DNA of 64,000 bases from Nitratireductor sp. (GCA_020441665.1 JAGRLT010000073.1:33254-97253), one strand, 5' to 3'; positions 34,038-64,000 are shown, counted from the first letter of the stretch. The notes: generated from the sequence alone by a model not told the origin. Made by a program: numbers and translations.

Positions 34038-34658
34038 TCAACGTAGGAGCGCCACCGCGCCCGCGCGGATTTCCCTGCCGTTCTCCTGCGCGGAAAGTTC
34101 GATGCGGATCGCATCCGGCAGGGCGCCGTCCTCGCGGAACGTCTCGCTCCAGCCGCCATCGGAAAGATAACTCAGCTTGAGCGCCGACAGGCCGTCGGCA
34201 ATTTCGGTAACCGTCTGGCTGCTGCGATCCGGCTGGCCGTTCTTCAGGCGCCGCAGCGCCATCGCCTGATAGAGCACGCCCTCCTTGAGCCCGAGTTCGA
34301 GATCGCGCAAGCCAAGCGCAAGGATGCCCTGGCGGGTGATCACCGCCGCGCGCAACTGGTTCTCCCTGCCATCGAGATAGGGACTTTCATCGGGCTTCGC
34401 ATCGAGCAGGCGAACCGGCCTCGCGCTCGCCAGCAGGCGCTTGAGGTAGTCGGCCGCCGCGGCAAGTTCGCTTTCCCTGGTGATCGTCGCCTCGACCCGG
34501 GAGACCGCGCCCAACTGGGTCAGGAAGCTGCTCATCAGGCCCGCCATGATACCCAGCACGGCAAGCGCCACCAGGATTTCGACCAGGGTGAAACCCGCTT
34601 CGCCGCCGGCGTCATCGATGCCGCGACGCCTTTTTCGAACTGGTTGCAGGACATTCAT
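34038..34658 (-). CDS. gspJ: T2SS minor pseudopilin, GspJ-like, 206 aa
   Basis: Prepilin motif GGEAG|FTLVEILVALAVLGI after a 22-aa leader. Its size and its position as the last gene of gspH-I-J fit GspJ. Confidence 0.65.
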   Translation of the reverse strand: MNVLQPVRKRRRGIDDAGGEAGFTLVEILVALAVLGIMAGLMSSFLTQLGAVSRVEATITRESELAAAADYLKRLLASARPVRLLDAKPDESPYLDGRENQLRAAVITRQGILALGLRDLELGLKEGVLYQAMALRRLKNGQPDRSSQTVTEIADGLSALKLSYLSDGGWSETFREDGALPDAIRIELSAQENGREIRAGAVALLR

Positions 34659-34671
34659 TTCGCTGCCCGCC

Positions 34672-35103
34672 TCATTCCGCCGAAGATGCGGCGAAAGTCA
34701 GAAAATCATAGGGTCTGCCGCCATCTGCCGGGGTGATGGCGATGCGCAGGGCAAACAGCTTCTGCTCGCGCCGATCGGGGATTTCCTCGCGCGTCACACT
34801 CCATCGGGTACCGTCCTCGAGCACCCCCTGGGTCCGGGGGGCGCCCGTGCCGGTGCGGACAAGCGCCAGCACCGTTTCGGCGGCGGATGTCACGGTTTCC
34901 AGCGTGCCCGAGCGGCGGAAGGTCATGCCGGTGCGCGACACGGTCTGCATCGCGACCGCCAGCGCCAGGGTCAGGATGGTAAAGGCGATGACCACCTCGA
35001 TCAGCGTGAAGCCCGCTTCCTGCCCGCCAGACTCCGGCTTCCCATGCTTCGGCTTCCCATGCTTCGGCTTCCCAGACTCCAACCCCCCGGATTCTCCGTT
35101 CAT
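34672..35103 (-). CDS. gspI: T2SS minor pseudopilin, GspI-like, 143 aa, with a 31-aa leader containing GKPKH repeats
   Basis: QEAG|FTLIEVVIAFTILTLALAV prepilin motif. Size and gene order fit GspI. Start at 35103. Confidence 0.65.
   Translation of the reverse strand: MNGESGGLESGKPKHGKPKHGKPESGGQEAGFTLIEVVIAFTILTLALAVAMQTVSRTGMTFRRSGTLETVTSAAETVLALVRTGTGAPRTQGVLEDGTRWSVTREEIPDRREQKLFALRIAITPADGGRPYDFLTFAASSAE
35035..35074. repeat. 15-bp tandem repeat (cggcttcccatgctt), 2 full copies plus a partial one
   Basis: Read directly at 35035-35049 and 35050-35064, with a partial copy at 35065-35074. In frame, it encodes GKPKHGKPKHGKP in the GspI leader peptide. Confidence 0.9.
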
Positions 35104-35594
35104 TGCGCCCTCCCCGCTCTGATCTTCGGCAGGCCGGTAAGCCAGTTGACGCTGAGCTCCGCCAACCGGTCGTCCGGTCCGGTAATGCGGATGTCGACAC
35201 CCGACGAACTGCCATCGGGCAGGAACAGCACGATGATCGTCCCGTCCTCCTCGATCAGTTCGCGCCCTGTGACGATGTTGATCCCGAAATCCTGCGGCAG
35301 TTCCACCGCCTCTTTCGGACCATAGGCGAACCGCTTCTGATCGGGAATGATCTGGAACCGCCGCACCTCGCCGCGGGCGATCGCATCGGTCCGCGCCTGA
35401 TAGACCAGCGCCTGCACCTGCTTTGCCGCCTCCATCGGCCGCACCGTCTGGCCGCGCCGCACCACCGTTGCCGAAATCGCCGCGAAGACGCCGGAGACGA
35501 TCACCAGCACCACCAGCATCTCGATCATCGAAAAGCCGGCCTCGCGGTCCTTTTCGTCCGCCGTCCGACGCATCTTCGGTCCGGCTCTTCTCAT
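35100..35594 (-). CDS. gspH: T2SS minor pseudopilin, GspH-like, 164 aa
   Basis: DREAG|FSMIEMLVVLVIVSGVF prepilin motif. Its size and its position after gspF fit GspH. Confidence 0.65.
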   Translation of the reverse strand: MRRAGPKMRRTADEKDREAGFSMIEMLVVLVIVSGVFAAISATVVRRGQTVRPMEAAKQVQALVYQARTDAIARGEVRRFQIIPDQKRFAYGPKEAVELPQDFGINIVTGRELIEEDGTIIVLFLPDGSSSGVDIRITGPDDRLAELSVNWLTGLPKIRAGRAQ

Positions 35595-36817
35595 CGGATC
35601 GCCAGTTCATTGACGCTCAGCAGCGTCGTCATCACCGAAATGACGAGGCTGCCGATCACCACGCCCATCAGGATCGTGATCGCCGGCGTCAGGAAGGACA
35701 GCATGCGGGTCAGCGAGCGCTGCAACAGGAATTCGGTAAGCGAGGCCGCCCGGTTCATCACCACCGGCAGATTGTTCGATTCCTCCCCGAGCCGGAACAG
35801 CGACACCATCGAGCCGTCGAAGACGCCCGATCCCTCCATCGCCGACCAGAACGCGCTGCCGCCGATCACCGCCTCGCGCGCCGCTTCCAACTGATGGCGG
35901 TATTGCCCGACGGGCATGCCGCCGGCCGACAGCCGCATCGCCTCGTTGAGCTGCACCCCATTGGCGAGCAGCAGCGCCATGCTTCTGAGATAGCGCGCCC
36001 TGAGAGAGCGGCGCATCACCGTGCCGATCACCGGCAGCCGCACCAACAACCGCGATATCGCCCGTCGTCCGCCATGGCTGCGCAGCGCGGCGAAAACGCC
36101 GAGACCTGCCAGCAGGAGCGCGGCGAGGATCAGCGGCCAGAAATGCGTCAGCGCCGAGCCGATCGCCGACAGGATCGAGACCACCATCGGTTTTTCCGCC
36201 CCGCCGCTGTCGAAAATCGGTTCGATCGCCGGCACCAGATAGGTCGCCAGCAGCAGCAGCGTACCGATCAGCACGAACACCAGAAAGGCCGGATAGAGCA
36301 GCGCCTCGACGATCTTGCCGCGCTGCTCGGCGATCCGGCCATGGTTCTTCGCCAGTTCGCTGAAGACCTGCGCCATGTGCCCGCCCCGCTCGCCGCTCTC
36401 GATCAGCGCCACCACGTCGTCGGGCACGCCCGGCTCATGACGGAAGGCCTCGGCGACCGACATCCCCTCGGAAAGGCGCGAATGGATCGCCTCGATGCGC
36501 GCCCTCTGACCGGCATTGGCCTGCGACTGGCCGACCGCGCGCAGGCTGACATCGACGGTGAAACCGGAATTGAGCATCACGGCAAGATCGGACAGCAGGG
36601 TCACCAGATCGAGCTTCGCCCTGAACAGCGACAGGCCCGGGGAGCTGGTGCCGGGCCGCGTTCCGCTCCGCGCCGGCTTCAGATCGAAGGCGGTCTTGCC
36701 CTGGCGCGCCAGGATACGGCCGGCCTCTGCCAGATCGGCGGCCTCGACCACGCCGCTTTCGGCGGCGCCGTTGGGGCCATAGGCCCTGAAGCGGAATTGC
36801 CGGCGTGCCGTCGTCAC
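35591..36817 (-). CDS. gspF: T2SS inner-membrane platform protein GspF, 408 aa
   Basis: Two repeated GspF-type cytoplasmic domains and three TM segments. It overlaps the gspE stop. Confidence 0.88.
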   Translation of the reverse strand: MTTARRQFRFRAYGPNGAAESGVVEAADLAEAGRILARQGKTAFDLKPARSGTRPGTSSPGLSLFRAKLDLVTLLSDLAVMLNSGFTVDVSLRAVGQSQANAGQRARIEAIHSRLSEGMSVAEAFRHEPGVPDDVVALIESGERGGHMAQVFSELAKNHGRIAEQRGKIVEALLYPAFLVFVLIGTLLLLATYLVPAIEPIFDSGGAEKPMVVSILSAIGSALTHFWPLILAALLLAGLGVFAALRSHGGRRAISRLLVRLPVIGTVMRRSLRARYLRSMALLLANGVQLNEAMRLSAGGMPVGQYRHQLEAAREAVIGGSAFWSAMEGSGVFDGSMVSLFRLGEESNNLPVVMNRAASLTEFLLQRSLTRMLSFLTPAITILMGVVIGSLVISVMTTLLSVNELAIR

Positions 36818-38463
36818 CCTTCATCACCCTCGAATTCGAGCACCCGGCCGACCTCCTCGCGCGAGGTGATGCCGCGCTCGACCAGCCGGTCGGCATGGCG
36901 GTGCATCGAGACCGCGCCCTCGGCCCGCGCCAGCTGGCGCAATTGCTGCTCGCTGCCGCCCTTGTTGACGCTGGCGGCAAGCTGCGGCGACATGGTGAGG
37001 ATCTCATAGGTCACCGTGCGGCCGGAATAGCCGGCGCCGTGACAGGTCTTGCACGCTTCTCCCTCGCTTGTGCCGCTTCCGCCGCACCTGCCGCATGATT
37101 TGCGCAACAGGCGCTGCGCCACCGAGGCGCGCAGCGTCGCCGAGATCAGATAGGGATCGATCCCCATATCCTGCAGCCGGGTCAGCGCGCCGGCCGCCGT
37201 ATTCGTATGCAGCGTCGAGAGCACCAGATGGCCCGTCAGGGCGGCCTGGATGGCGATCTGCGCGCTTTCCCGGTCGCGGATCTCGCCGACCAGGATGACA
37301 TCGGGATCCTGGCGCAGCACCGAGCGCAGCGCGCGGGCGAAATCGAGATCGATGGCCGGATCGACCTGCAACTGGGTAACCCCGTCGAGCCGGTATTCGA
37401 TCGGGTCCTCGACGGTGAAGATCTTGATGTCCTCGCCCTGGCGCTCCTTCAGCAGCGAATAGAGCGTCGTCGTCTTGCCGCTGCCGGTCGGCCCGCAGAT
37501 GAGCACGATGCCATTGGGTATCTTCACCAGATGGCGCAGCGCATCGATGGCGTCTTCCGCATAGCCCAGCGCATCGAGCGACAGCGCCACGCCGGAGCGG
37601 TCTAGAATACGCAGGACGAAGGTCTCGCCATGAGCGCTCGGCATCACCGAAACGCGCAGGTCGATGTTCTGGCCGCGCACCGCGATGCGCATCCGTCCGT
37701 CCTGGGGCAGCCTGCGTTCGGCGATGTTGAGCCGCGACATGATCTTGATGCGGGTCGAGATGCCGGCATGCATTTCCCGCGTCGCCCGCTCGATCTCGCG
37801 CATCATGCCGTCGATGCGGAAACGGATGCGCACGTGATCGGCCATCGGCTCGACATGGATGTCGGTCGCCCCGTCATCGACCGCCTGCTGGATGATGCGC
37901 GAGACGAAGCGGACCACCGGCGCCTCGCGCGCATAATCGCGCAACCGATCGAGATCGTCGCTGTCGGCAAGGCCGAATTCGTCACCGGCATCAAGCGTCT
38001 CGGCCGGCTTCTCCCGCTCGCGCAGGCCCTTGAGATAGTCGGTGATGGCGCTGCGCGGAAAAATTCGCGGCGACACCGGCAGGTCGAAATGAAAGCCCAG
38101 CGCCGTCATCGCACCGTGCTCGAAGGGATCGGCGACGGCGGCGACCAGCAAGCCGTCGCGGCGTTCGAGCGGCACGAGGTGATTGGCTTCCAGAAATTCG
38201 AGACTGGCGGGATCGAGGATGCTGGCATCGGGTTCGTCCGGCAGGTCCGCAAGATAGGGCACGCCGAGATAGGCGCTCAGATGCCGCGCCAGTTCCGCCT
38301 CCTTGACGAGGCCGAGTTCCACCAGAACCGTATCCGCCGGATAGGCCATGGTGGCATGGGCATTGACCGCGCGCGCGCGCGCCTCCGCCGCCAGCACGCC
38401 CTCGTTCTCGAGATAGGCGAGAAATCCCCGGAAGGAGAGATCGGGTCTTGCCAGTTCATTCAT
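36814..38463 (-). CDS. gspE: T2SS ATPase GspE, 549 aa
   Basis: Walker A GPTGSGKTT, Asp box, Walker B ILVGEIRD, His box, and a tetracysteine motif CGRCGG...CKTCHG. T2SSE_N-like N-terminal domain. Start MNELARP at 38463. Confidence 0.92.
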   Translation of the reverse strand: MNELARPDLSFRGFLAYLENEGVLAAEARARAVNAHATMAYPADTVLVELGLVKEAELARHLSAYLGVPYLADLPDEPDASILDPASLEFLEANHLVPLERRDGLLVAAVADPFEHGAMTALGFHFDLPVSPRIFPRSAITDYLKGLREREKPAETLDAGDEFGLADSDDLDRLRDYAREAPVVRFVSRIIQQAVDDGATDIHVEPMADHVRIRFRIDGMMREIERATREMHAGISTRIKIMSRLNIAERRLPQDGRMRIAVRGQNIDLRVSVMPSAHGETFVLRILDRSGVALSLDALGYAEDAIDALRHLVKIPNGIVLICGPTGSGKTTTLYSLLKERQGEDIKIFTVEDPIEYRLDGVTQLQVDPAIDLDFARALRSVLRQDPDVILVGEIRDRESAQIAIQAALTGHLVLSTLHTNTAAGALTRLQDMGIDPYLISATLRASVAQRLLRKSCGRCGGSGTSEGEACKTCHGAGYSGRTVTYEILTMSPQLAASVNKGGSEQQLRQLARAEGAVSMHRHADRLVERGITSREEVGRVLEFEGDEG

Positions 38464-38528: not shown

Positions 38529-39470
38529 TTACCGGTTCGCCAGCCAATTGGCCACGCCCGGCCCGACGATTGCCGCGCATTCATCCGTCGCGACAAAAGG
38601 CTCGGACAAGGCGCGGGGCGCATTGACGAGAAGCACGGAATCACTGGCCGGCTCCATCAGTTTGAAACCGGCTTCGGCCTCGGGAAATTCGAAATAGCCG
38701 CCCCAGTATCCGCGGACGCCCAGATCGGGATCGACCACTTCGACCGACACCATCGCATAGACGAGCGGCAGCGGCGCCGCGCTCACATAGGGATGCCGGC
38801 TGGTGGGATTGTCGGGCAGCACCCGCCGCAGCGCCGGCGAATAGGCATCGGGATCGATCACCGCGCTGCGGTTGTAGACGGTCATCACCCGGCGCAGGGT
38901 GCCCGGCGCCATGCCCGCCATTCCCTCGAATTCGTAGAGTTCCTCGATCGCGTCGAACGGAAAATGCTTCAAACCGGCCGGGACGAGCCGGTTGGCCCCG
39001 CCACCTCCGCCGCCTTGGGGCGAGCGGTAGGCGACCGCCGCATCGGCGAGGTTCGCCGCATCGCCGGCGGAAAAGCCGAGCGCCAGGAATCCCGCTTCCA
39101 GGAGACCGCGCGGCGAGGTGTTGAGATCGGCGAGACCGGCCTGATCCTGCGCCACGATGGTCAGATCGTGCGGCCCGCACCGGACCCGCATCGGCTCGGA
39201 ATCGAGCTTCAGCTCGGCGATGGCGACCGTATCGCGACCGGCGATCTGGCGCGCGATGGCCTGGGCGACGCCGCGCGCCAGCATCTGCTGGCGGACGATG
39301 AGATATTGCCGCGAGGAGAGCAGGAAATCCGTCCGTGCCGCCAGCACGAAGGGCGTGATCACCGCGCTGACGATCAGCAGGAAGAGCAGCACCGCGACCA
39401 GCGCGAAGCCCGCCACGCCCTCACCGCGGCCGGCGCTGTCCGAGGCGGGGTTTCCGGCCACCTCATTCAC
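38529..39470 (-). CDS. gspK: T2SS minor pseudopilin GspK-like, about 313 aa
   Basis: N-terminal GVAG|FALVAVLLFLLIVSAV lacks Glu+5, as is typical for GspK. Size is about 310-330 aa. I chose the GTG at 39470, which overlaps the upstream stop by 8 nt. The ATG at 39512 is an alternative. Confidence 0.6.
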   Translation of the reverse strand: MNEVAGNPASDSAGRGEGVAGFALVAVLLFLLIVSAVITPFVLAARTDFLLSSRQYLIVRQQMLARGVAQAIARQIAGRDTVAIAELKLDSEPMRVRCGPHDLTIVAQDQAGLADLNTSPRGLLEAGFLALGFSAGDAANLADAAVAYRSPQGGGGGGANRLVPAGLKHFPFDAIEELYEFEGMAGMAPGTLRRVMTVYNRSAVIDPDAYSPALRRVLPDNPTSRHPYVSAAPLPLVYAMVSVEVVDPDLGVRGYWGGYFEFPEAEAGFKLMEPASDSVLLVNAPRALSEPFVATDECAAIVGPGVANWLANR

Positions 39471-42009: not shown

Positions 42010-42044
42010 GCAAGGTCGGGGCAAGGTCGGGAGACGAGGTCGGG
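42010..42044 (+). promoter_or_regulatory. Direct repeats gcaaggtcggg x2 (11-bp period) plus a third gaggtcggg, upstream of gspD
   Basis: Read directly at 42010-42020, 42021-42031 and 42036-42044. They lie 28-62 nt before the gspD ATG. Confidence 0.4.
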
Positions 42045-42071
42045 TGCGATTGTGTTGATGCGGCAGGCAGC

Positions 42072-57836: not shown

Positions 57837-58973
57837 CTAGTTGCTGGCTTTTTCTTCCAGCACCGCCAGACGGGCCTCGAACATGACCTTCTGTTCCTTC
57901 AACTGGTTGTGCAACTGCTCGATATAGATGTGGGCATGCTCGAGTTCGTTCAGCATCCGCACCAGCTTCAGCGTCACGTCGAGCGGCTCATCCGGACGGG
58001 TCGGCCCCACCGCGGGCAGGTATTTGTTGGCCCACATCTGCGCCGCGTGATCGTCGATCGAGGGAACCGTGTAGATCGCCGGATCGAAGACCGCATCGCA
58101 CGGATCGGCGGGTGTGCAGGCACCGCCGCCGCCGGTCGTGACCAGGCCGCCGGTAATCGTCAGATTGCCGGCCGACGACAACACGAATTCCTGCTGGCCG
58201 CTGCCATCGACGCTGATTCGGAAATCGTCATTGTCGCTGGCATCCACCGTCCAGTTTTCCGAACCGTCGGTATTGTCGAACATGATCCTCGGAAGCCCGT
58301 CATTGCCGGCGCCGCCGCGACTCAGATGCAGCAAGGCCGACGGCGAAATCGTGCCCAGACCGATATGGCCGGTGCTGCCTTCGATGATGAGCGAGTTGGA
58401 CGGCGCGCCGGGGAAGACCCGCAGCGGCAGCGTGCTGCCATGGGTCGCATCCCGCAGGAAGAAGCTGGTCTCGTTGCCCGCCAGGTCCCAGGTCTGCGGC
58501 GCGAAGCCGGAAGAGCCGTCCTGTTCGAGACGCAGGCCCGGCGAATCGCCGTTGCGCGTATGAAGCTCGAGCACCGGCGTCGAGGTGTTGAAACCGACCC
58601 GGCCGCCATCGTCGACATAGAGCGCGTTGGAAACCGCGCCGGCCTCGATGGTGAAGGGAATGCGGTTGGCCGTGGCGTCCTGCACCGAGAACCGCGAAAG
58701 CCCGCCATTGGCCTGGTCGTTGACCAGGATGCGCCAGTCATTGCGCGGAAAGGAACCCGCCGTCGACGTATCGTCGAAATGGATACGCAGATTGTTTTCC
58801 TTCAACCGGATCGTGTCGGCGCCGAACCCCGGCTCGGGATTGCCGCAGTCGAAACCGACGCAAAGCGAGTTGTAGACCGTCAGATCGGCCTGGGCGGTCG
58901 CCGGCAGAAGGGTCGCGGCGCCAAGCGCGAGAACGGAAGCTGCCGCCTTCAGGCGGTACGTAGAATGTGTCAT
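57837..58973 (-). CDS. Secreted tail-fibre-like repeat protein, paralogue 2, with an extra C-terminal helical module, 378 aa
   Basis: SD GGGAGA and signal peptide ...LLPATAQA. It has the same three-repeat body as paralogue 1, plus about 90 additional C-terminal residues ending in a heptad-like helix (LNELEHAHIYIEQLHNQLKEQKVMFEARLAVLEEK). Confidence 0.7.
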   Translation of the reverse strand: MTHSTYRLKAAASVLALGAATLLPATAQADLTVYNSLCVGFDCGNPEPGFGADTIRLKENNLRIHFDDTSTAGSFPRNDWRILVNDQANGGLSRFSVQDATANRIPFTIEAGAVSNALYVDDGGRVGFNTSTPVLELHTRNGDSPGLRLEQDGSSGFAPQTWDLAGNETSFFLRDATHGSTLPLRVFPGAPSNSLIIEGSTGHIGLGTISPSALLHLSRGGAGNDGLPRIMFDNTDGSENWTVDASDNDDFRISVDGSGQQEFVLSSAGNLTITGGLVTTGGGGACTPADPCDAVFDPAIYTVPSIDDHAAQMWANKYLPAVGPTRPDEPLDVTLKLVRMLNELEHAHIYIEQLHNQLKEQKVMFEARLAVLEEKASN

Positions 58974-58992
58974 CGTTCCAATCTCCCTGACC

Positions 58993-59421
58993 CTAGTCTT
59001 CTTCCTTGGGACCCGGATCAACCTTGACGATGATCCCGTCCTTGGCGGTGAACGTGCCGTAAGCGACCCCGGTAAGGGGGCGTTTCGGATTGTCGTTCGG
59101 ACCTCGGCCATTGTTGAGGCCCGAGCGGCTCGTCCAGGTCGTCTTGGTAGAGGCCGCGCTGACCTCGTAGCGATAGACGCCGGCATCGATGCCGCCGGCC
59201 TTGATCAGGTCGACGGAAACTGTCGTGCCCTTGGAGAAGGCGTCGGTCTGGAACCGGTTGGGACCGGTCACCACCAGTTTGGCGTTGAAGTAGTTTTTGG
59301 GGACGGTGATGGTTACGCGCGAACCTTCGAGTTCCTCGCTAACCTGAATTTCGCCGGCGAGCACAGGCGCGTATACAAGGACGCACATACCTCCCGCCAA
59401 CAACAGGCTGGTCTTCCGCAT
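58993..59421 (-). CDS. Small secreted protein, cassette 2, 142 aa
   Basis: Signal peptide MRKTSLLLAGGMCVLVYAPVLAG. It is a paralogue of 57126..57557 and ends 19 nt upstream of the fibre gene. Confidence 0.65.
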   Translation of the reverse strand: MRKTSLLLAGGMCVLVYAPVLAGEIQVSEELEGSRVTITVPKNYFNAKLVVTGPNRFQTDAFSKGTTVSVDLIKAGGIDAGVYRYEVSAASTKTTWTSRSGLNNGRGPNDNPKRPLTGVAYGTFTAKDGIIVKVDPGPKEED

Positions 59422-59740: not shown

Positions 59741-62700
59741 ATGACGGAAATTTCTACTCCCCAAGCCAAGCGGAAGCGGGTCTGCCTGCTCGTGCTCGGC
59801 ATGCACAGGTCAGGTACCAGTGCGCTTACCCGCGTACTCAGCCTCAGCGGGGCAGCGCTGCCGATGAATTTGATCGGACCCGGTGAGGGCAATGAACGCG
59901 GTCACTGGGAACCCCAGAGGCTGGTCAACTTCTGTGAGGAGATTCTCGCCGAATTGGGCTCGTCCTGGCACGACTGGCGCCCTCTCGAGCTTGAAAAACT
60001 GTCCAAGTCGCGCATCGAGCAGATACAGGAGAGATTTCGCACGATTGTTGAGGAGGAATTTGCCGGGCACGACCTTTTCGTCGTCAAGGATCCCCGCCTT
60101 TGCAGGCTTTCGCAACTTTTCGTCGCCGCGCTCGAAAAGGGCGACATTGAGGTCTGCCCGGTACTGCTGGTGCGCAATCCGCTGGAAGTTTCGGCCTCGC
60201 TGAGACAGCGCAGCCGGTTATGGTCACCACACTATAGCCAGGCGCACAGCTCATTGCTATGGTTGTCCTATGTGCTTGCCGCGGAAGCGGAAACACGCGG
60301 CCTCAAACGTGCAGTGGTGACCCATGAGTCTCTGATGCTGGACTGGCGCGGAACGCTTGCCTCGATTGCGCTGAATACCGCAACGGAATTTCCTGTGAGC
60401 GCCGAACAGGCGGAAGACGAAGTGCGCTCCTTTCTGTCAGACGGTTTGTACCGGCAACGGTGGACAACCGGCGAACTGAAGCTCGACCCGGTAATGCGTG
60501 GCTGGATCAGCCAGGCCTTCGATGCGTTGTCCAAGCTGGCATCTGATCCCTCCCGCAAGGCCTCTCTGCGAAAGCTGGACAAAATTCGCGCCGAATTTGA
60601 AGGTTCGGCGCCGATGATCTGCGACTTGCTTGAAAATGCGATCACCGAATCCGTCAGGGCGGTCGAGAACATCGAGGCAAGGATGGAAATCGCCGGCCAG
60701 AGGGCCGTCAGGCGCTCAAAGACGGCCGAAACCGTCAACAGAAAGCTTAAAAGCCTGATGAGCGACCGCGAGGAGACCGTCAGCACCCTGCGCAGCAAGC
60801 TGAAGCTGATGGAACAGGAAAAAGCGGCGTTTGCGCACAAGTTCGCCGAGCTGGAAAGGGAGCTTTCGACCGCCCAAAGTGACTTCGAAGCTGAGCGCAG
60901 GAGACGCGGCGAGGCTCTCAGAGCGACTCAGTCCTACATCGACGCGGTTCGCGAGGAATTCAGGAGTTCCCGGTCGTGGCGGATCACTGCGCCGCTCAGA
61001 GCCGGCGGTCGCATGTACCGCTACCTGCTGAGGATGCTGGGGCTTTTCAGCTTCGTCCGTTCAGAACAGGGATATCTGACCAGCCTGTACAAATCGGCCC
61101 GCATTCTGCTCACGGAAGGACCGCGGGGCTTTGCCGCCAGGCTTGATGCACAGCCGAAAAAGCCGCCGGCAAGACAACCGGTTCCGCCGACCGTTGCCAG
61201 CACGGATGCAGACGTTGATCCCATCTCGTGCCTGCTGGTAACGACCCGCCACGTTGAGGGAATAGCGCAGACGATGGCGCGCATCCTGCGCCAGGAAGGG
61301 TTCAACACGCGTGTTCAGTTTGACGCCGAGGATGCGCACCGGCACGGACACGTCATCGTCCTTTGCCCGCAAATGTTCGAGCAACTTCCGCCCCGGTATA
61401 TTGCCGTTCAGATGGAGCAGTCCATCAATCCGCGCTGGTTTACCGAGCAATATTTCGAGAAGCTCAACAATTCGCAGGCCATCATTGACTATTCGATAAG
61501 GAATATCAGTTTCCTGCGCGAGAACGGCATTCCGCTTGAGAAGTTGCACTATGTGCCGCTCGATACCGACAAAGCCCTGGCCGCCACGGTCGCCAACAAC
61601 AACACGTTCGAACGGCGTGGCATCCTGTTTTATGGCGACGACAAGTGCGAACGGCGCAGGAAGATTCTCGACGCGGTCGCCAGGCAATTGCCGCAACTCA
61701 AGATCGTCAACAACCTGTTCGGCGAGGCACTGCACAAGGAGCTGATGCAGGCGGCGGTCATCTTGAACATTCACTACTACCCGGATGCGCTGCTTGAAAC
61801 GGCCCGCATCCATGAGGCCCTGTCCTTTGGCGCGCCGGTCGTCAGCGAAAGGGGATCGGATCAGGAAGAGCACGATACGCTGGAGAACATCGTGACCTTT
61901 GTCGACGCCGGGGATGTCGATGGCCTGATCAAGGCCCTTCGGCCGTTTGTCGAAAGCAGCCACCATGCCGAGAGCAGGGCAGCAGCAACCGCCGAGTTCG
62001 CCACCCGCGAGACCAACCGCTTCGAAACCTACTTTCGGCGCTTCCTGCTGTCACAACGCATGATCGGACTGGACGGCTTCGTCGAGCGCGCAAGCAATTA
62101 CCCGGTGCCGGTGCCGGCTGACCCCAGACTGTGCCTGAGCCTTCCCGAGACGCCCGACCGGCGACGGCTTTTCATCGACCAGGGACACGACGAATTTCAG
62201 GTTTGGGACGGGTTGAAGATGTCGCCCGGCTGGATGGGAGCGGCGCTCAGCTACAAGCATCTGTTCACCAGGCTGAACTCGGAAAAAGCCGGCAGAGCGG
62301 TTGTCTGCGAGGACGACGTCCTGTTCCCGCCTGATTTCGAACGGCGCTTCAAGACCGTCCTGCGCTACCTCGAAAAGACCCCCTTCGAAATCTTCTCGGG
62401 CTTTATTGCCGACGCCAATGAAAATCTTGTCATCACCAAGGTGGAGGAGTTTGAAGGCGAGCTCTTCATCCACATAGACCGGACGGTGAGCATGGTTTTC
62501 AACATCTACTCGGACACGATCATTGAGTATCTCTCGGGATGGGACATTGCCGATCTAGATGTGGAAACAAACACCATAGACCGCTATCTTGAACGTCGCA
62601 CCGGAACGAAAGCCATTCTGACCCTGCCCTATCTGGTCCAGCACCGGCCGGATGCCGCCTCGACAATCTGGGGTTTCGACAATACCGCTTACGATGAGCT

Positions 62701-62773
62701 TACCACCCAGTCGGAAATTCTGCTTGCGAGAAAAGTTGACGAGTTTCGCCGCAAACACGAAAAAGGCAATTAG
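59741..62773 (+). CDS. Multidomain enzyme, 1010 aa: N-terminal sulfotransferase, coiled coil, GT1-like (GT4-type) domain and C-terminal GT25-like domain
   Basis: VLGMHRSGTSALTRVL (5'-PSB) and LLVRNPLEVSAS (3'-PB). Heptad-rich residues about 300-400 end in SRSWRITAPLR. ETARIHEALSFGAPVVSE is an E-x7-E-type GT motif. The C-terminal VVCEDDVLFPPDFERRF is GT25-like. Domain boundaries are approximate. Confidence 0.7.
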   Translation: MTEISTPQAKRKRVCLLVLGMHRSGTSALTRVLSLSGAALPMNLIGPGEGNERGHWEPQRLVNFCEEILAELGSSWHDWRPLELEKLSKSRIEQIQERFRTIVEEEFAGHDLFVVKDPRLCRLSQLFVAALEKGDIEVCPVLLVRNPLEVSASLRQRSRLWSPHYSQAHSSLLWLSYVLAAEAETRGLKRAVVTHESLMLDWRGTLASIALNTATEFPVSAEQAEDEVRSFLSDGLYRQRWTTGELKLDPVMRGWISQAFDALSKLASDPSRKASLRKLDKIRAEFEGSAPMICDLLENAITESVRAVENIEARMEIAGQRAVRRSKTAETVNRKLKSLMSDREETVSTLRSKLKLMEQEKAAFAHKFAELERELSTAQSDFEAERRRRGEALRATQSYIDAVREEFRSSRSWRITAPLRAGGRMYRYLLRMLGLFSFVRSEQGYLTSLYKSARILLTEGPRGFAARLDAQPKKPPARQPVPPTVASTDADVDPISCLLVTTRHVEGIAQTMARILRQEGFNTRVQFDAEDAHRHGHVIVLCPQMFEQLPPRYIAVQMEQSINPRWFTEQYFEKLNNSQAIIDYSIRNISFLRENGIPLEKLHYVPLDTDKALAATVANNNTFERRGILFYGDDKCERRRKILDAVARQLPQLKIVNNLFGEALHKELMQAAVILNIHYYPDALLETARIHEALSFGAPVVSERGSDQEEHDTLENIVTFVDAGDVDGLIKALRPFVESSHHAESRAAATAEFATRETNRFETYFRRFLLSQRMIGLDGFVERASNYPVPVPADPRLCLSLPETPDRRRLFIDQGHDEFQVWDGLKMSPGWMGAALSYKHLFTRLNSEKAGRAVVCEDDVLFPPDFERRFKTVLRYLEKTPFEIFSGFIADANENLVITKVEEFEGELFIHIDRTVSMVFNIYSDTIIEYLSGWDIADLDVETNTIDRYLERRTGTKAILTLPYLVQHRPDAASTIWGFDNTAYDELTTQSEILLARKVDEFRRKHEKGN

Positions 62774-62896
62774 AGCCTTTCAGGCCCCGCCTTCCGGCAT
62801 GTTTTCCTGTTGCAACCGGGTCAATAGGGCTGATACGGAGCCGCAATCGGCGGCAAGCTGACATTTCGGGCAGAACCAGCCTATACGGGAGGTCCC

Positions 62897-63538
62897 ATGG
62901 AAATCGATTATTCACGCTATAACACGGACAAAGGTCTGCACTTCCTGAAAAACTACGAGCGCTGGTTTGCCGAATTGCGCGACAAGGAGGTCCACATCCT
63001 CGAACTGGGCATTCTGGACGGAGGATCGCTGGAGTTGTGGCGCGATTTCTTTCCGAAAGGAAAGGTCGTGGGTATCGACCTGAAAAAGTTCGAGGTCGGG
63101 AACGAGGAGCGTATCTTTACCTTTGCCGGCTCTCAGGACGATCCCGAACTGTATCGCCGCATACAACGCGAACTGAACATACCCAGGTTCGATATCATCA
63201 TTGATGACGCCTCGCACGTGGGGAACATATCATTGAATTCATTCAATATCCTATATAATGGCTATCTCAGGAACGGCGGCCTGTATGTCGTGGAAGATTG
63301 GGGCACCGGCTATTGGTCCCATTGGCCGGACGGCCATAAATACAACGCGCCAAGCGTCGAAGGAAACCGCATCCGCTCGAACGATCACGGCATGGTCGGC
63401 TTCATCAAGGCGCTGGTCGACTATGTCGCCTTCCCGGATATCGTGCGCTTCGACAGCGAGGCCGCCGGCAGTCTGGTCAAGGTCAGGGCGCTTGAAATAC
63501 AGCCCGGTCAGGTTTGCCTGACAAAGCCGTCGGCATGA
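62897..63538 (+). CDS. Class I SAM-dependent methyltransferase (CmcI/sugar O-methyltransferase-like), 213 aa
   Basis: SD GGGAGG. SAM-binding motif I ILELGILDGGSLELW, an acidic residue after beta-2 (VVGIDL), and IIIDDASH. Confidence 0.7.
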   Translation: MEIDYSRYNTDKGLHFLKNYERWFAELRDKEVHILELGILDGGSLELWRDFFPKGKVVGIDLKKFEVGNEERIFTFAGSQDDPELYRRIQRELNIPRFDIIIDDASHVGNISLNSFNILYNGYLRNGGLYVVEDWGTGYWSHWPDGHKYNAPSVEGNRIRSNDHGMVGFIKALVDYVAFPDIVRFDSEAAGSLVKVRALEIQPGQVCLTKPSA

Positions 63539-63562
63539 ACCGCGAAGCTGCCGACCTAGGTC

Positions 63563-64000
63563 ATGAAAAGAATCATCCTCCATGTCGGAACTGAAAAGAC
63601 CGGCACGACCTCGATCCAGAAGTATTTTTGGGACAATCGGGAAAAATACCGGGAACGCGGTTTGTGTTATCCCGAATGCCTCGGAACGCAGAACCATGTC
63701 GGGCTCGTGACGTGCGCGCGCGGTTTCGCCGAGAATGATTCCATAAGGATCCTGCAGGAAATCTATTCGCGCAGCACCCACGAAAGATACAAGCGGCGCG
63801 CAAGACTGCAGTTCAGAAGGGAGATCGAGAATTTCGACACCATCGTACTGTCGAATGAGCATCTGTCCGCGCGACTTCGAAAACCGGAGGAATTCAAACG
63901 GCTGAAATCGTTTCTCGATGTCGAGGCCAATGACGTGAAAGTGGTCCTGTATGTCCGGCGGCAGGATGAATTCCTGATCAGTTCCTACACGGCCCATATC
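63563..64000 (+). CDS. Sulfotransferase-family protein, 5' part (runs off the window end)
   Basis: Not in the ORF track because no stop falls within the window. My translation from the ATG at 63563 is MKRIILHVGTEKTGTTSIQKYFW... (5'-PSB loop) ...VVLYVRRQDEFLISSY (3'-PB-like R-x3-E-x3-S). The frame is open to 64000. Confidence 0.6.
   Translation, partial: MKRIILHVGTEKTGTTSIQKYFWDNREKYRERGLCYPECLGTQNHVGLVTCARGFAENDSIRILQEIYSRSTHERYKRRARLQFRREIENFDTIVLSNEHLSARLRKPEEFKRLKSFLDVEANDVKVVLYVRRQDEFLISSYTAHI

What the first reader, a model, noticed from the sequence alone, without database searches (positions are those of the whole stretch)
34038..64000. Candidate undescribed envelope system: atypical T2SS, membrane-anchored FG-GAP/ASPIC protein, Sel1 pair, sulfation/glycosylation island and duplicated secreted fibre cassettes
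Seen in the sequence:
- A contiguous block of about 30 kb in which almost every gene encodes secretion machinery, a signal-peptide or membrane protein, or a glycan/sulfate-modifying enzyme. No housekeeping gene interrupts it.
- The only signal-peptide proteins without an obvious enzymatic role are the two tail-fibre-like repeat proteins and their small partner proteins.
- No other dedicated export apparatus (T1SS, T5SS, usher, sortase) is visible.

Inference: the fibre proteins are exported to the periplasm by Sec, released or assembled by the neighbouring T2SS, and possibly decorated by the adjacent GT, sulfotransferase and methyltransferase set. They contain several N-x-S/T sequons and are rich in Ser, Thr and Asn. 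The Sel1 proteins and the FG-GAP/ASPIC fusion would act as periplasmic or inner-membrane scaffolds.

No functional link is established by the sequence. Adjacency alone could be coincidental, and the right-hand part looks compositionally different from the T2SS part.
Basis: inference. Interest (0 to 1): 0.75.

Follow-up and report, generated by a model that had tools for sequence, protein, structure and literature searches.

The report
Secretion-linked tail-fibre-like surface fibre module
A marine bacterium carries a conserved, apparently undescribed gene set that couples a type II secretion machine to three unusual helper proteins and short phage-tail-fibre-like proteins, which suggests a testable route by which such fibres reach the bacterial surface.

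Summary
Window 34038-63538 holds 26 genes: a complete type II secretion system (T2SS), a permease/FG-GAP/ASPIC fusion ("PermASPIC"), two Sel1 proteins, a lower-GC sulfatase/sulfotransferase/glycosyltransferase/methyltransferase set, and two paralogous small-protein + fibre cassettes. No housekeeping gene interrupts it.

- Alphaproteobacterial fibre loci of at least 15 kb (n=37): 27 hold full-length PermASPIC, 28 the Sel1 pair, 32 the small partner, 25 T2SS genes.
- PermASPIC loci with at least 6 kb on both sides (n=20): 19 hold the Sel1 pair, 17 a fibre, 14 T2SS genes.
- In Maricaulis-type loci all of it forms one co-directional 17-kb operon. It also sits on eight roseobacter plasmids.

The fibres match Bdellovibrio MAT fibre beta-helices (E 1.3e-11). 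The small partner is the detached N-terminal domain of longer fibres (hhalign 99.6%). Outside Alphaproteobacteria, fibres lie next to soluble FG-GAP/ASPIC and TPR proteins, with no T2SS within 10 kb. The link is therefore not tied to this T2SS subtype.

Sulfotransferases recur beside fibre genes, but all the modifying enzymes here are cytoplasmic.

Secretion, surface display and sulfation are untested. Verdict: partly supported, a new variant of a known kind.

The parts
34038..34658 (-). gspJ-like minor pseudopilin
   Evidence: N_methyl motif and a T2SSJ hit below the Pfam cut-off. Prepilin site GEAG|FTLVE.
34672..35103 (-). gspI-like minor pseudopilin
   Evidence: N_methyl motif. The start was refined to the ATG at 35103, which overlaps the gspH stop.
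35100..35594 (-). gspH-like minor pseudopilin
   Evidence: N_methyl motif and a weak GspH hit.
35591..36817 (-). gspF inner-membrane platform protein
   Evidence: T2SSF, E 1e-39, two domains.
36814..38463 (-). gspE secretion ATPase
   Evidence: T2SSE, E 4.6e-126, plus an MshEN domain. The start was set at MNELARP.
38529..39512 (-). GspK-like pseudopilin (327 aa)
   Evidence: No Pfam or NCBIfam hit. It has a prepilin-like GVAG|FALVAV site without Glu5, one N-terminal TM segment, and lies in the gspK position. A homologue is present in L025 and L129. The assignment is inferred.
39463..39966 (-). 167-aa bitopic membrane protein (GspC/GspN position)
   Evidence: No family hit. N-terminal TM segment. 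Conserved in L025 and L129.
39963..40562 (-). gspM, subtype b
   Evidence: T2SSM_b, E 6.4e-15.
40555..41601 (-). gspL-like protein with a PilN domain
   Evidence: PilN domain, E 1.7e-14. TM segment at about residue 200. The start is inferred.
41602..42071 (.). Divergent intergenic region between gspL and gspD
   Evidence: A gap of 470 bp with the refined gspL start at 41601; one search listed 500 bp using the earlier start at 41571. It is the presumed promoter region. No significant promoter signal was tested here.
42072..44147 (+). gspD secretin
   Evidence: N0, Secretin_N x3 and Secretin domains. Signal peptide ending in a lipobox-like LLQGC.
44172..44786 (+). Short A24 prepilin peptidase
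   Evidence: Peptidase_A24, E 6.4e-13. At most 204 aa, with no N-terminal methyltransferase domain detected.
44797..45255 (+). gspG major pseudopilin
   Evidence: T2SSG, E 2.3e-29, plus N_methyl.
45381..48476 (+). PermASPIC: polytopic permease-like domain fused to an FG-GAP beta-propeller and an ASPIC/UnbV domain
   Evidence: ArsP_1 (50.5 bits, cut-off 32.3), FG-GAP_3 x5 and UnbV_ASPIC. About 9 TM segments. 50-61% identical orthologues lie in the same module in many loci. PGAP calls the orthologues 'FG-GAP-like repeat-containing protein'.
48517..50133 (+). Sel1-repeat protein a (signal peptide)
   Evidence: Sel1 x7, E 7e-52. Conserved as a pair with Sel1b.
50130..51455 (+). Sel1-repeat protein b (N-terminal anchor)
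   Evidence: Sel1 x6, E 1e-55. Its start overlaps the Sel1a stop by 4 nt.
51474..52850 (-). Cys-type sulfatase, cytoplasmic (accessory island)
   Evidence: Sulfatase, E 2e-43. CxPxR motif (CIPAR). No signal peptide or TM segment. GC 0.596.
52980..54005 (+). Sulfotransferase-like protein 1
   Evidence: Sulfotransfer_3, 21.6 bits, below the cut-off of 27. Homologues lie beside fibre genes in L030, L031, L059 and L071.
53956..54873 (-). Sulfotransferase 2
   Evidence: Sulfotransfer_3, 44.4 bits, and Sulfotransfer_1. Homologues lie beside fibre genes in L026, L058, L059 and L130.
54870..55943 (-). GT1-type (EryCIII/MGT-like) glycosyltransferase
   Evidence: EryCIII-like_C, 35.2 bits. Start overlaps the coding end of sulfotransferase 2 by 4 nt.
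56187..57110 (-). Fibre A (307 aa), lacking the C-terminal helical domain
   Evidence: 58% identical to fibre B. By eye, a signal peptide ending ASA|AQ. Member of the fibre family.
57126..57557 (-). Small partner A (FN3/Ig-like beta-sandwich)
   Evidence: 33% identical to small partner B. AF2 model with a core pLDDT above 90 and FN3-like fold matches. Homologous to the N-terminal domain of long fibres (hhalign 99.6%).
57837..58973 (-). Fibre B (378 aa): conserved N-domain, beta-helix repeats, variable segment, C-terminal helical domain
   Evidence: 100% identical to the NCBI record KDJ80_06995, Nitratireductor sp. MAG. The family profile hits Bd2133, Bd3182, Bd1334 and Bd2439. BFVD matches are tail fibres and ICA-domain proteins. 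Conservation profile.
58993..59421 (-). Small partner B
   Evidence: See small partner A.
59741..62773 (+). 1010-aa cytoplasmic multidomain enzyme: sulfotransferase-like N-domain, coiled coil, GT-like domains
   Evidence: The N-terminal 300 aa are 32% identical (E 2e-43) to a protein that PGAP names 'sulfotransferase family protein'. Weak Glyco_trans_1_2 and GT25 hits. Homologues of the N-domain lie near fibre genes in 7 + 6 loci.
62897..63538 (+). Methyltransferase-like protein
   Evidence: Weak FtsJ and CmcI-like hits, below cut-off. GC 0.539. Methyltransferases occupy the fibre-to-PermASPIC gap in other loci.

Best explanation
The T2SS operons (34.0-45.3 kb), PermASPIC, the two Sel1 proteins and the two small-partner + fibre cassettes form one functional module. 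The module makes and exports a short, phage-tail-fibre-like trimeric surface fibre.

Proposed steps:
1. The fibre and the FN3-like small partner cross the inner membrane by Sec. This step is inferred from N-termini that look like signal peptides.
2. The fibre trimerises through its beta-helix repeats, helped by its conserved C-terminal helical domain. This is inferred from its homology to Bdellovibrio MAT fibres and phage fibres.
3. The periplasmic Ca-binding FG-GAP/ASPIC propeller, held at the inner membrane by a permease-like domain of about 9 TM segments, together with the two Sel1 proteins, binds the conserved N-terminal part of the fibre and/or its small partner, and hands the fibre to the T2SS. 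This is inferred from synteny alone.
4. The T2SS pushes the folded fibre through the secretin. This is inferred.
5. The fibre stays on the cell as an adhesin. Its variable segment (residues 196-270) would be the specificity determinant. This is inferred.

The sulfatase, sulfotransferase, GT and methyltransferase genes are a strain-specific, lower-GC set of cytoplasmic enzymes. Such enzymes recur next to fibre genes. They most likely build a sulfated or methylated glycan, or some other modification made before export, that is functionally tied to the fibre as its anchor, ligand or decoration. They are not part of the conserved core.
For: Gene content.

Operon structure in the window:
- gspD-gspO-gspG-PermASPIC-Sel1a-Sel1b run in one direction, with gaps of 24, 10, 125 and 40 nt and a 4-nt overlap between Sel1a and Sel1b.

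Synteny anchored on the fibre (80 species-representative genome loci). Among alphaproteobacterial loci of at least 15 kb (n=37):
- PermASPIC full length: 27
- Sel1 pair: 28
- small partner: 32
- T2SS genes: 25

Synteny anchored on PermASPIC (80 metagenome loci). Among loci with at least 6 kb on both sides (n=20):
- Sel1 pair: 19
- fibre: 17
- T2SS genes: 14

Three different gene orders keep the same partners:
- Window type: also L081 and L129.
- Rhodobacterales type: gspG(-), then A24 peptidase, Sel1, Sel1, small partner, fibre, PermASPIC.
- Maricaulis type: one co-directional 17-kb operon from gspE to the fibre.

Plasmids:
- Eight roseobacter plasmids carry PermASPIC.
- The six whose neighbourhoods were read carry the small partner + fibre next to it. 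Four of them also carry the Sel1 pair nearby. Three carry T2SS genes: Tateyamaria omphalii pDOK1-4-5 (54 kb), Leisingera sp. M527 and strain M382.

The fibre and its partner:
- The small partner is a Rosetta-stone fragment of longer fibres (hhalign probability 99.6%, E 2.3e-24).
- The fibre beta-helix is homologous to Bdellovibrio MAT fibres (E 1.3e-11). MAT fibres are surface-displayed adhesins whose attachment partner is unidentified (PMC10769870).
- The conservation pattern is conserved N-part, variable segment, conserved C-domain.

Beyond Alphaproteobacteria:
- FG-GAP(/ASPIC) proteins lie next to the fibre genes in 14 of 33 non-alphaproteobacterial loci.
- TPR proteins do so in 7 of 33.
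- The order FG-GAP, TPR, fibre(s) appears in Thermoanaerobaculia and other Acidobacteriota (L014, L035, L054, L067); in two gammaproteobacterial loci (L010, L018) both genes lie within about 6 kb upstream of the fibre gene, on the opposite strand.

Sulfotransferases:
- 47 sulfotransferase-like ORFs occur in 2.42 Mb of these loci.
- 17 of 80 fibre loci have one within 5 kb of a fibre gene.

Expression: the plasmid T2SS of strain M382, which adjoins the module, is detected in biofilm membrane proteomes (PMC10090131 supplement).
Against: - No experiment links any component to any other.
- All 33 non-alphaproteobacterial fibre loci, and 12 of the 37 alphaproteobacterial loci of at least 15 kb, lack T2SS genes within 10 kb. 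The fibre may therefore not need a T2SS.
- Some PermASPIC loci have the small partner but no fibre beside it (L091, L094, L105, L107, L143, L151).
- More distant PermASPIC homologues (40-47% identity) mostly stand without other module genes nearby (L138, L141, L142, L152, L155, L157, L158); L160 has a short Sel1a-like match at its contig end.
- Pfam Peptidase_S74 does not match the C-terminal domain. That domain also has no sequence relative in the PDB.
- The monomer AF2 model gives no significant PDB fold match.
- The best 80 loci of each scan are biased towards close relatives.
- The modifying enzymes are cytoplasmic.
- On some roseobacter plasmids the module sits inside polysaccharide export islands. 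This fits a polysaccharide-related role equally well.
Confidence: 0.5

Rival explanations
1. The real functional unit is only beta-propeller (FG-GAP/ASPIC) + TPR/Sel1 proteins + fibre. This unit works without the T2SS. Its adjacency to a T2SS in Alphaproteobacteria reflects co-regulation or co-transfer on envelope islands and plasmids. The fibre then reaches its destination (periplasm, outer-membrane vesicles or the surface) by another route.
For: - The triad recurs in Acidobacteriota and Gammaproteobacteria with no T2SS genes within 10 kb.
- L082, L083 and L085, and the Litorimonas/Algimonas loci, have the module without nearby T2SS genes.
- The associated T2SSs are of different subtypes and diverge much more than PermASPIC does.
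Against: - In the Maricaulis type the fibre is the last gene of a single gspE-to-fibre operon. In the window type PermASPIC and the Sel1 genes directly follow gspD-gspO-gspG. In Rhodobacterales the prepilin peptidase gene heads the Sel1-Sel1-small-fibre operon.
- A 54-kb plasmid carries the T2SS and the module together.
- A T2SS elsewhere in the genome was not excluded for the loci that lack one.
Confidence: 0.25
2. The module serves a (sulfated) exopolysaccharide or capsule. PermASPIC and the Sel1/TPR proteins act as an export or anchoring scaffold, as AlgK and PelB-type TPR proteins do. The fibres are lectin-like proteins that bind or organise that polysaccharide on the cell surface.
For: - On the Phaeobacter G2, Leisingera M527, M382 and Tateyamaria plasmids the module is embedded among Wza, Wzc, YjbF/H, GT, nucleotide-sugar, lyase and sulfotransferase genes.
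- The window has ST, GT, MT and sulfatase genes around the cassettes.
- The Sel1 proteins give sub-threshold hits to AlgK.
- Bdellovibrio MAT fibres bind glycans (PMC10769870).
Against: - Maricaulis-type operons and many metagenome loci contain no polysaccharide genes between or around the module genes.
- No polysaccharide synthase or Wzx/Wzy gene lies in the window block.
- The sub-threshold Sel1/AlgK matches are generic repeat similarity.
Confidence: 0.12
3. The 'T2SS' is in fact a pilus or pseudopilus display machine, and the fibre is mounted on the pseudopilus tip as an adhesin.
For: - A short TadV-like A24 peptidase and a PilN-type GspL.
- An extra GspK-like gene between gspD and PermASPIC in the Maricaulis type.
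- The MAT paper raises a possible interplay with type IV pili.
Against: - The secretin has the T2SS-type N0/N1-3 architecture, GspG matches T2SSG, and there is a single ATPase with no retraction ATPase.
- The fibre and small partner have N-termini that look like Sec signal peptides, not prepilin leaders.
Confidence: 0.08
4. Chance clustering of unrelated envelope genes on a genomic island, or a decayed prophage or tailocin tail-fibre remnant.
For: - Lower GC to the right of 51.5 kb.
- PGAP names the orthologues 'tail fiber domain-containing protein' with viral GO terms.
- Weak PHROG tail-fibre hits.
Against: - Synteny is conserved across orders and on plasmids.
- There is only one weak match in 2.9 million viral contigs.
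- The fibres and small partners have N-termini that look like Sec signal peptides.
- No phage structural, integrase or lysis genes are in the block.
Confidence: 0.05

Closest known systems
Bdellovibrio bacteriovorus mosaic adhesive trimer (MAT) fibres (Bd2133, Bd3182, Bd1334, Bd2439; Caulton et al. 2024, PMC10769870)
   Same: - Homologous beta-helix repeat region (profile E 1.3e-11 to 8OND, also 8OJN, 8OML, 8OL4).
- The N-terminus looks like a Sec signal peptide (by eye).
- Conserved N-terminal part, a variable distal part, and members both with and without a C-terminal chaperone-like domain.
- Diversified paralogue repertoires, up to 14 in tandem in Thalassococcus profundi.
   Different: - Much shorter: 307-378 aa here, against the roughly 920-1150 aa implied by the residue ranges of the crystallised MAT constructs.
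- The N-terminal FN3-like domain is split off as a separate gene.
- Pfam S74 does not match the C-terminal domain.
- Encoded in or next to T2SS operons with PermASPIC and Sel1 proteins. No such context is mentioned in the passages of the MAT paper that were read, and the phrase 'type II secretion' does not occur in it.
- Whether the N-terminal domains are homologous was not tested.
Type II secretion system (Gsp) with dedicated accessory or sorting partners. From my own knowledge, not checked here: GspS-type pilotins and the GspAB complex; liposecretins such as HxcQ; and rhombosortase/GlyGly-CTERM or MYXO-CTERM sorting of T2SS cargo.
   Same: A complete core set (D, E, F, G, H, I, J, K-like, L, M, O). 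Cargo-linked accessory genes lie in the same operon. The secretin may be lipidated.
   Different: The accessory proteins are a permease-FG-GAP-ASPIC fusion and two Sel1 proteins, which are not known T2SS partners. No GspC was recognised. GspM is subtype b, GspL is PilN-like, and the peptidase is short. The putative cargo is a fibre rather than an enzyme or toxin.
CRTAC1/ASPIC-type FG-GAP beta-propeller proteins
   Same: FG-GAP repeats with Dx[DN]xDG-type Ca-binding loops, plus a C-terminal UnbV_ASPIC domain.
   Different: Fused to a polytopic PF03773 permease-like domain that carries a conserved CxxC (PLGVCVNC). There is a Cys-rich insert with six conserved Cys. In the searched library no paper combined 'type II secretion' with ASPIC or with FG-GAP and Sel1, and the papers that mention CRTAC1 with FG-GAP or UnbV do not, by their titles and abstracts, deal with a bacterial function.
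Phage tail fibres with an intramolecular chaperone (Peptidase S74 / ICA) domain
   Same: The predicted structure matches BFVD tail fibres and ICA-domain proteins (62 hits at E<=1e-3). UniRef labels some family members 'Peptidase S74 domain-containing'. The C-terminus is a long helix.
   Different: - Not encoded on phages.
- No Pfam S74 hit.
- No Ser-Lys dyad motif is evident. An invariant Cys-Asp sits at the start of the domain.
- Fibre A lacks the domain altogether.

Membership tests
Type II secretion system (Gsp) | Outer-membrane secretin GspD with N0 and Secretin domains | tested here: met
   N0, Secretin_N x3 and Secretin (E 9e-48).
Type II secretion system (Gsp) | GspE ATPase and GspF platform protein | tested here: met
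   T2SSE, E 4.6e-126; T2SSF, E 1e-39.
Type II secretion system (Gsp) | Major pseudopilin GspG, minor pseudopilins H, I, J and K, and a prepilin peptidase | tested here: met
   T2SSG, E 2.3e-29. N_methyl in the H-, I- and J-like proteins. Peptidase_A24, E 6e-13. The K-like assignment of the 327-aa protein is inferred only (no Pfam hit).
Type II secretion system (Gsp) | Assembly platform GspL, GspM and GspC | tested here: inconclusive
   T2SSM_b and a PilN-domain L-like protein were found. No GspC was recognised; the 167-aa bitopic protein is a candidate.
Type II secretion system (Gsp) | Secretes folded periplasmic proteins | not testable with these tools
   Needs mutants and fractionation.
MAT / tail-fibre-like trimeric beta-helix fibres | Homologous beta-helix repeat region | tested here: met
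   The family profile against the PDB gives Bd2133 E 1.3e-11, Bd3182 7e-4 and Bd1334 1e-3. There are 62 hits at E<=1e-3 in BFVD, and most of the named ones among the top 50 are tail fibres or ICA-domain proteins.
MAT / tail-fibre-like trimeric beta-helix fibres | The invariant MAT N-terminal (cell-proximal) domain | not tested
The family has its own highly conserved N-terminal region, residues 31-195.
MAT / tail-fibre-like trimeric beta-helix fibres | Trimeric assembly and surface display | not testable with these tools
   Only monomer prediction was available (pLDDT 76).
Peptidase S74 / intramolecular chaperone domain | Match to the S74 sequence model, with the Ser-Lys autoproteolytic dyad | tested here: not met
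   No Pfam Peptidase_S74 hit at E<=0.1. No PDB sequence hit for the C-terminal 94 aa. The only support is structure-level resemblance and UniRef labels.
CRTAC1/ASPIC FG-GAP proteins | FG-GAP repeats plus a UnbV_ASPIC domain | tested here: met
   FG-GAP_3, E 5e-39 (5 repeats); UnbV_ASPIC, E 2.4e-10.
CRTAC1/ASPIC FG-GAP proteins | Soluble secreted architecture | tested here: not met
   Fused to a domain of about 9 TM segments that matches ArsP_1. The fibre-linked relatives outside Alphaproteobacteria lack a recognisable permease domain and have at most one N-terminal hydrophobic segment, so they are the soluble or singly anchored form.
PF03773 (ArsP_1) permeases | Match above the Pfam gathering score; transport function | tested here: inconclusive
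   50.5 bits against a cut-off of 32.3 over residues 109-362. The NCBIfam SaoE hit is far below its cut-off. The substrate is unknown.
Sel1-like repeat (SLR) proteins | Tandem Sel1 repeats | tested here: met
   7 and 6 repeats, E 7e-52 and 1e-55.
PAPS-dependent sulfotransferases | Match to a sulfotransferase model with a 5'-PSB P-loop | tested here: met
   - ST2: 44.4 bits, above the cut-off of 27.
- ST1: 21.6 bits, below the cut-off.
- 1010-aa protein: its N-domain is 32% identical (E 2e-43) to a protein that PGAP names 'sulfotransferase family protein'.
- P-loops RSGTT and RSGTS are visible in the sequence.
- Activity and substrate are untested.

The most novel reading that the evidence does not exclude
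A horizontally mobile pathway found mainly in marine bacteria, in which a CRTAC1-like beta-propeller protein and TPR/Sel1 proteins form a dedicated periplasmic assembly and targeting platform for phage-tail-fibre-like (MAT-type) adhesins. In Alphaproteobacteria the propeller is bolted to the inner membrane through a permease-like domain. The fibres may be sulfated or glycan-linked, and the platform hands them to a T2SS for surface display. If true, this would give a first function for bacterial ASPIC/FG-GAP proteins. It would also answer how MAT-like fibres reach and hold on to the cell surface.
Probability: 0.3. Interest if true: 0.85.

Novelty: new variant of a known kind. Interest (0 to 1): 0.7.

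Why it matters
**An uncharacterised but very large family.** The fibre family has 4676 clusters at 50% identity with E<=1e-3. It spans Proteobacteria, Acidobacteriota, Bacteroidota and Verrucomicrobiota. It has no Pfam or NCBIfam model, and genome annotation pipelines mislabel it as viral tail fibre.

**An open question becomes testable.** Related Bdellovibrio MAT fibres are surface adhesins. The surface element they attach to was explicitly left open, and 'secretion' does not occur in that paper (PMC10769870). The conserved neighbourhood found here names concrete candidate partners: a T2SS, a permease-propeller-ASPIC protein, two Sel1 proteins and an FN3-like base domain. It also offers culturable, plasmid-borne test cases, namely Tateyamaria omphalii pDOK1-4-5 and strain M382, for which biofilm proteomics already exists.

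**A possible first function for bacterial CRTAC1/ASPIC proteins.** The neighbourhood gives the first contextual clue to what these proteins do in bacteria.

**Ecology.** It points to plasmid-mobile adhesion determinants in roseobacters, which are ecologically important surface and algal colonisers.

Tried and rejected
- **Exact-sequence look-ups.** Look-ups of fibre A and fibre B to recover the source contig beyond 64 kb found nothing on record. What lies to the right of the window is therefore unknown.
- **Foldseek of the monomer fibre model against the PDB.** No hit at E<=1e-3. This is expected for one chain of an intertwined trimer. The PDB sequence-profile search and BFVD were informative instead.
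- **C-terminal domain.** Pfam S74 and a PDB sequence search of the C-terminal domain were both negative. I do not file the fibre as an S74 member.
- **NCBIfam and PHROGs.** No family matched the small partners, the 327-aa protein or the 167-aa protein. The fibres gave only weak tail-fibre hits.
- **Rfam.** Nothing in 34-64 kb.
- **Promoter and terminator scan of 51-60 kb.** Counts were not above those in shuffled sequence, so no operon boundaries were drawn from it.
- **Literature.** Searches for T2SS with FG-GAP, Sel1 or ASPIC, for T2SS with roseobacter tail fibres, for Bdellovibrio MAT fibres with T2SS, and for bacterial CRTAC1 found no description of this module.
- **Prophage or tailocin origin.** Rejected: one weak hit in 2.9 million viral contigs.
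- **Prepilin-type processing of the fibre or small partner.** Rejected: their N-termini look like Sec signal peptides ending in AxA-type sites (read by eye).
- **Tateyamaria 'tail fiber protein' genes.** The three roughly 200-aa genes downstream of PermASPIC were considered as further module members. They were rejected because they occur only in L037 and L162.

Full report
**1. What is in the window**

The window is high-GC (about 0.65), so I called genes by third-position GC bias and checked them against Pfam and NCBIfam.

On the minus strand, 34038-41601 holds:
- gspJ-, gspI- and gspH-like pseudopilins, then gspF and gspE;
- a 327-aa GspK-like pseudopilin, whose prepilin site lacks Glu5 and which matches no Pfam model;
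- a 167-aa bitopic membrane protein;
- gspM of subtype b, and a GspL-like protein with a PilN domain.

After a 470-bp divergent gap, the plus strand carries:
- gspD, with N0, three Secretin_N domains and a Secretin domain, and a lipobox-like LLQGC;
- a short A24 prepilin peptidase, and gspG;
- a 1031-aa fusion of an ArsP_1-type permease domain (about 9 TM segments), five FG-GAP repeats and a UnbV_ASPIC domain ("PermASPIC");
- two Sel1-repeat proteins.

The gaps in this plus-strand series are 24, 10, 125 and 40 nt, followed by a 4-nt overlap.

From 51474 onward gene GC falls to 0.54-0.65. This part holds:
- a Cys-type sulfatase, two sulfotransferase-like proteins and a GT1-type glycosyltransferase;
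- on the minus strand, two cassettes of small protein + fibre;
- a 1010-aa protein whose N-terminal 300 aa are 32% identical (E 2e-43) to a protein that PGAP names 'sulfotransferase family protein', followed by a coiled coil and weak GT domains;
- a methyltransferase-like gene.

The left half of the window is ordinary metabolism and transport. The two fibres are 58% identical and the two small partners 33% identical. One correction: the sulfatase and all the transferases lack a signal peptide or TM segment.

**2. Source**

Fibre B is 100% identical to the NCBI record 'MAG: hypothetical protein KDJ80_06995 [Nitratireductor sp.]', on a 105,772-bp contig.

**3. What the fibres are**

- *Family size.* The family is very large: at least 3702 hits among the 8000 scored candidates, and 4676 clusters at 50% identity with E<=1e-3, of which 1506 reach E<=1e-30.
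- *Distribution.* It occurs in Rhodobacterales, Rhizobiaceae, Maricaulis and Litorimonas, Arenicella, Acidobacteriota, Saprospiraceae and Opitutales.
- *No curated model.* No Pfam or NCBIfam model matches it. PGAP calls orthologues 'tail fiber domain-containing protein'.
- *Homology.* A profile of 85 members hits the crystallised beta-helix regions of the Bdellovibrio MAT fibres: Bd2133 at E 1.3e-11, and also Bd3182, Bd1334 and Bd2439 (Caulton et al. 2024, PMC10769870).
- *Structure.* The AF2 monomer (pLDDT 76) is beta-rich and ends in a long helix. It gives no significant PDB fold match. In BFVD it gives 62 matches at E<=1e-3, most of the named ones being phage tail fibres and proteins with an intramolecular-chaperone domain.
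- *Not a phage gene.* Only one weak hit turned up in 2.9 million viral contigs.
- *S74 membership not supported.* Pfam Peptidase_S74 does not match, and the C-terminal 94 aa have no sequence relative in the PDB.
- *Conservation pattern.* Residues 31-195 are highly conserved. Residues 196-270 are variable, with insertions of up to 68 aa. Residues 271-360 are conserved again. This is what one expects of a conserved base, a variable tip and a conserved folding domain.

**4. The small partner**

The AF2 model shows an FN3/Ig-like beta-sandwich. An hhalign comparison of 56 small partners (the two in the window plus 54 from the loci) with the N-terminal extensions of 21 longer fibres gave probability 99.6% and E 2.3e-24. 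Most of the best-scoring representatives are this fused form of 500-600 aa. The separate small gene is therefore a split-off N-terminal fibre domain, which is a strong indication that the two proteins associate physically. Arrays with one small gene and many fibre genes exist (L070). So do arrays of 14 fibre paralogues with no small gene (L015, Thalassococcus profundi).

**5. Is the adjacency conserved?**

I fetched 80 species-representative genome loci anchored on the fibre and 80 metagenome loci anchored on PermASPIC. I then searched them with all the window proteins.

| Set | n | PermASPIC (full length) | Sel1 pair | Small partner | Fibre | T2SS genes |
|---|---|---|---|---|---|---|
| Fibre-anchored, Alphaproteobacteria, locus at least 15 kb | 37 | 27 | 28 | 32 | 37 (anchor) | 25 |
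| PermASPIC-anchored, at least 6 kb on both sides | 20 | 20 (anchor) | 19 | 15 | 17 | 14 |

Three different gene orders keep the same partners:
- *Window type:* gspD, gspO, gspG, PermASPIC, Sel1a, Sel1b (also L081 and L129).
- *Rhodobacterales type:* gspG on the minus strand, then A24 peptidase, Sel1a, Sel1b, small partner, fibre, a variable gene or genes, and PermASPIC.
- *Maricaulis type:* one co-directional 17-kb operon, with gspE, F, G, H, I and J, three further ORFs, gspD, a GspK-like gene, PermASPIC, Sel1a, Sel1b, small partner and fibre.

L025 (a Rhizobiaceae MAG) places small partner + fibre directly after gspJ.

Eight roseobacter plasmids carry PermASPIC, and I read the neighbourhoods of six. 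The 54-kb RepABC plasmid pDOK1-4-5 of Tateyamaria omphalii carries the whole T2SS plus the module. The Leisingera sp. M527 and strain M382 plasmids also carry T2SS genes with it. No T2SS gene lies in the stretches read for Roseovarius faecimaris and Phaeobacter sp. G2.

PermASPIC is 50-61% identical across these lineages, whereas GspD is 24-36% and GspE 39-50%. Rhodobacterales use a classical GspL_C/T2SSM machine rather than the M_b/PilN type. The module is therefore linked to T2SSs in general, not to this subtype.

**6. Beyond Alphaproteobacteria**

None of the 33 non-alphaproteobacterial fibre loci has T2SS genes, the Sel1 pair or full-length PermASPIC within 10 kb. However, clustering their ORFs and scanning them against Pfam shows:
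- an FG-GAP protein, in most of the scanned cases with a UnbV_ASPIC domain, and without a recognisable permease domain, next to the fibre genes in 14 of 33;
- a 520-545-aa TPR protein in 7 of 33;
- both in 6, in the order FG-GAP, TPR, fibre(s) in the four Thermoanaerobaculia/Acidobacteriota loci (L014, L035, L054, L067), and upstream on the opposite strand in the two gammaproteobacterial loci (L010, L018).

The deepest conserved association is thus beta-propeller + TPR/Sel1 + fibre. The permease fusion and the T2SS adjacency are alphaproteobacterial elaborations.

**7. The modifying enzymes**

In the window they sit in a lower-GC segment between Sel1b and the inverted fibre cassettes. In other genomes small partner + fibre follows Sel1b directly. 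The enzyme set is therefore accessory, but it is not random:
- In several Rhodobacterales, the genes between the fibre gene and PermASPIC encode sulfotransferases (L008, L037, L112, L058, L030, Roseovarius faecimaris pMME07001), methyltransferases (L013, R. faecimaris, Phaeobacter G2) or a GT (L037).
- A phmmer survey found 47 sulfotransferase-like ORFs in 2.42 Mb of loci. In 17 of 80 fibre loci one lies within 5 kb of a fibre gene, including loci from Acidobacteriota, Saprospiraceae and Arenicella. I believe this is well above a typical genomic density, but I did not compute a background.

Because the enzymes are cytoplasmic, they could act on a glycan or lipid precursor, or on the fibre before export. 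They could not act on the periplasmic fibre.

**8. Expression evidence from the literature**

In membrane proteomes of strain M382 biofilms (PMC10090131, supplementary file 3), the plasmid-encoded GspK, GspL, GspD and GspE were 3-3.8 times more abundant with thiosulfate. Their masses and order match plasmid CP081099.1, which carries the module. CysH, and a 60.6-kDa neighbour that I infer to be the 529-aa sulfotransferase beside PermASPIC, were 2.1-2.3 times up. The module proteins themselves were not found in the supplementary files held as text, one of which was cut when stored.

**9. Mechanism**

My best explanation (confidence 0.5) is that this is a T2SS-coupled pathway for a surface fibre:
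1. Sec exports the fibre and its FN3-like base.
2. The fibre trimerises.
3. The membrane-tethered propeller and the Sel1 proteins capture and target it.
4. The T2SS expels it.
5. It is displayed on the surface with a variable tip.

What is shown: the gene content, the homology to MAT fibres, the domain fusion and the synteny. Every mechanistic step is inferred.

The main rival (0.25) is that the propeller/TPR/fibre triad works independently of the T2SS. A polysaccharide-centred reading (0.12) is kept alive by the polysaccharide-export context on several plasmids. Pseudopilus display (0.08), and chance clustering or a prophage remnant (0.05), are unlikely.

**10. Novelty**

No paper in the searchable library describes this combination. 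In the MAT paper the word 'secretion' does not occur, and the surface element that the fibres bind is left open. I rate the finding a new variant of a known kind: a T2SS with a dedicated accessory trio and a MAT-like fibre as its likely cargo. Interest is 0.7.

Noticed in passing
L015 1-21050 (Thalassococcus profundi); also L028 and L070: Tandem arrays of 14, 7 and at least 9 diverged fibre paralogues (28-51% identical to fibre B). L070 has a single Sel1-Sel1-small set in front of its array. This resembles the diversified MAT repertoire of Bdellovibrio.
   Followed up: partly
L010, L014, L018, L035, L054, L067 and other non-alphaproteobacterial loci: FG-GAP(/ASPIC) proteins without a recognisable permease domain, and TPR proteins of about 530 aa, lie directly beside fibre genes in Acidobacteriota and Gammaproteobacteria. 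Giant DUF7933/DUF11 repeat surface proteins lie next to them in 7 of 33 loci.
   Followed up: partly
L162/L163 (Tateyamaria omphalii plasmid pDOK1-4-5, NZ_CP019317.1): A 54-kb RepABC plasmid. About 30 kb of it is the T2SS + module + sulfotransferase. The rest includes alginate-lyase-like and heparin-lyase-like genes, GT and nucleotide-sugar genes, and caspase-domain genes.
   Followed up: partly
L164 23548-31482 and L166 19312-28596: On the Phaeobacter G2 and Leisingera M527 plasmids, giant Ig-like domain proteins (2644 and 3094 aa) sit immediately downstream of PermASPIC. They may be additional cargo or co-adhesins.
   Followed up: no
window 56883-56942 and 58767-58826: A 60-nt stretch is 97% identical between fibre A and fibre B, while the rest of the genes are 71-75% identical. 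It encodes FGADTIRLKENNLRIHFDDT. The cause could be gene conversion or strong constraint on the most conserved motif.
   Followed up: no
window 56076-56110: A near-perfect palindrome (16-nt arms, 3-nt loop) lies in the 243-bp gap between the fibre A stop and the GT1 start. It could be a terminator or an operator.
   Followed up: no
window 42072-42130: The gspD signal peptide ends in LLQGC, which resembles a lipobox. The secretin may be lipidated and self-piloting, and no pilotin gene is seen.
   Followed up: no
window 44172-44786: The prepilin peptidase has at most 204 aa and only the A24 catalytic domain. From my own knowledge it resembles TadV/CpaA-type peptidases more than full-length GspO/PilD.
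   Followed up: no
L091, L094, L105, L107, L143, L151: These metagenome loci show the order Sel1a, Sel1b, small partner, PermASPIC, with no fibre gene between or nearby. The fibres may be encoded elsewhere, or the small protein may have a role of its own.
   Followed up: no
P0121-P0124: Proteins of 1701-4928 aa contain 3-5 copies of the conserved fibre N-terminal region (residues 29-221).
   Followed up: no
window 63251-63997 (minus strand): A 248-aa ORF overlaps the methyltransferase-like gene. It has no Pfam hit and no GC3 bias, so it is probably not a gene. The sequence to the right of 63538 is unassigned and the window ends there.
   Followed up: no
window 34972-35103: The long leader of the GspI-like pseudopilin contains a KPKHGKPKHGKPE repeat before the prepilin cleavage site.
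   Followed up: no
PMC10090131, supplementary file 3: In strain M382 biofilm membrane proteomes, the plasmid-encoded T2SS proteins, Wza, KpsT, CysH and a 60.6-kDa protein were more abundant with thiosulfate. I infer that the 60.6-kDa protein is the sulfotransferase next to PermASPIC.
   Followed up: partly
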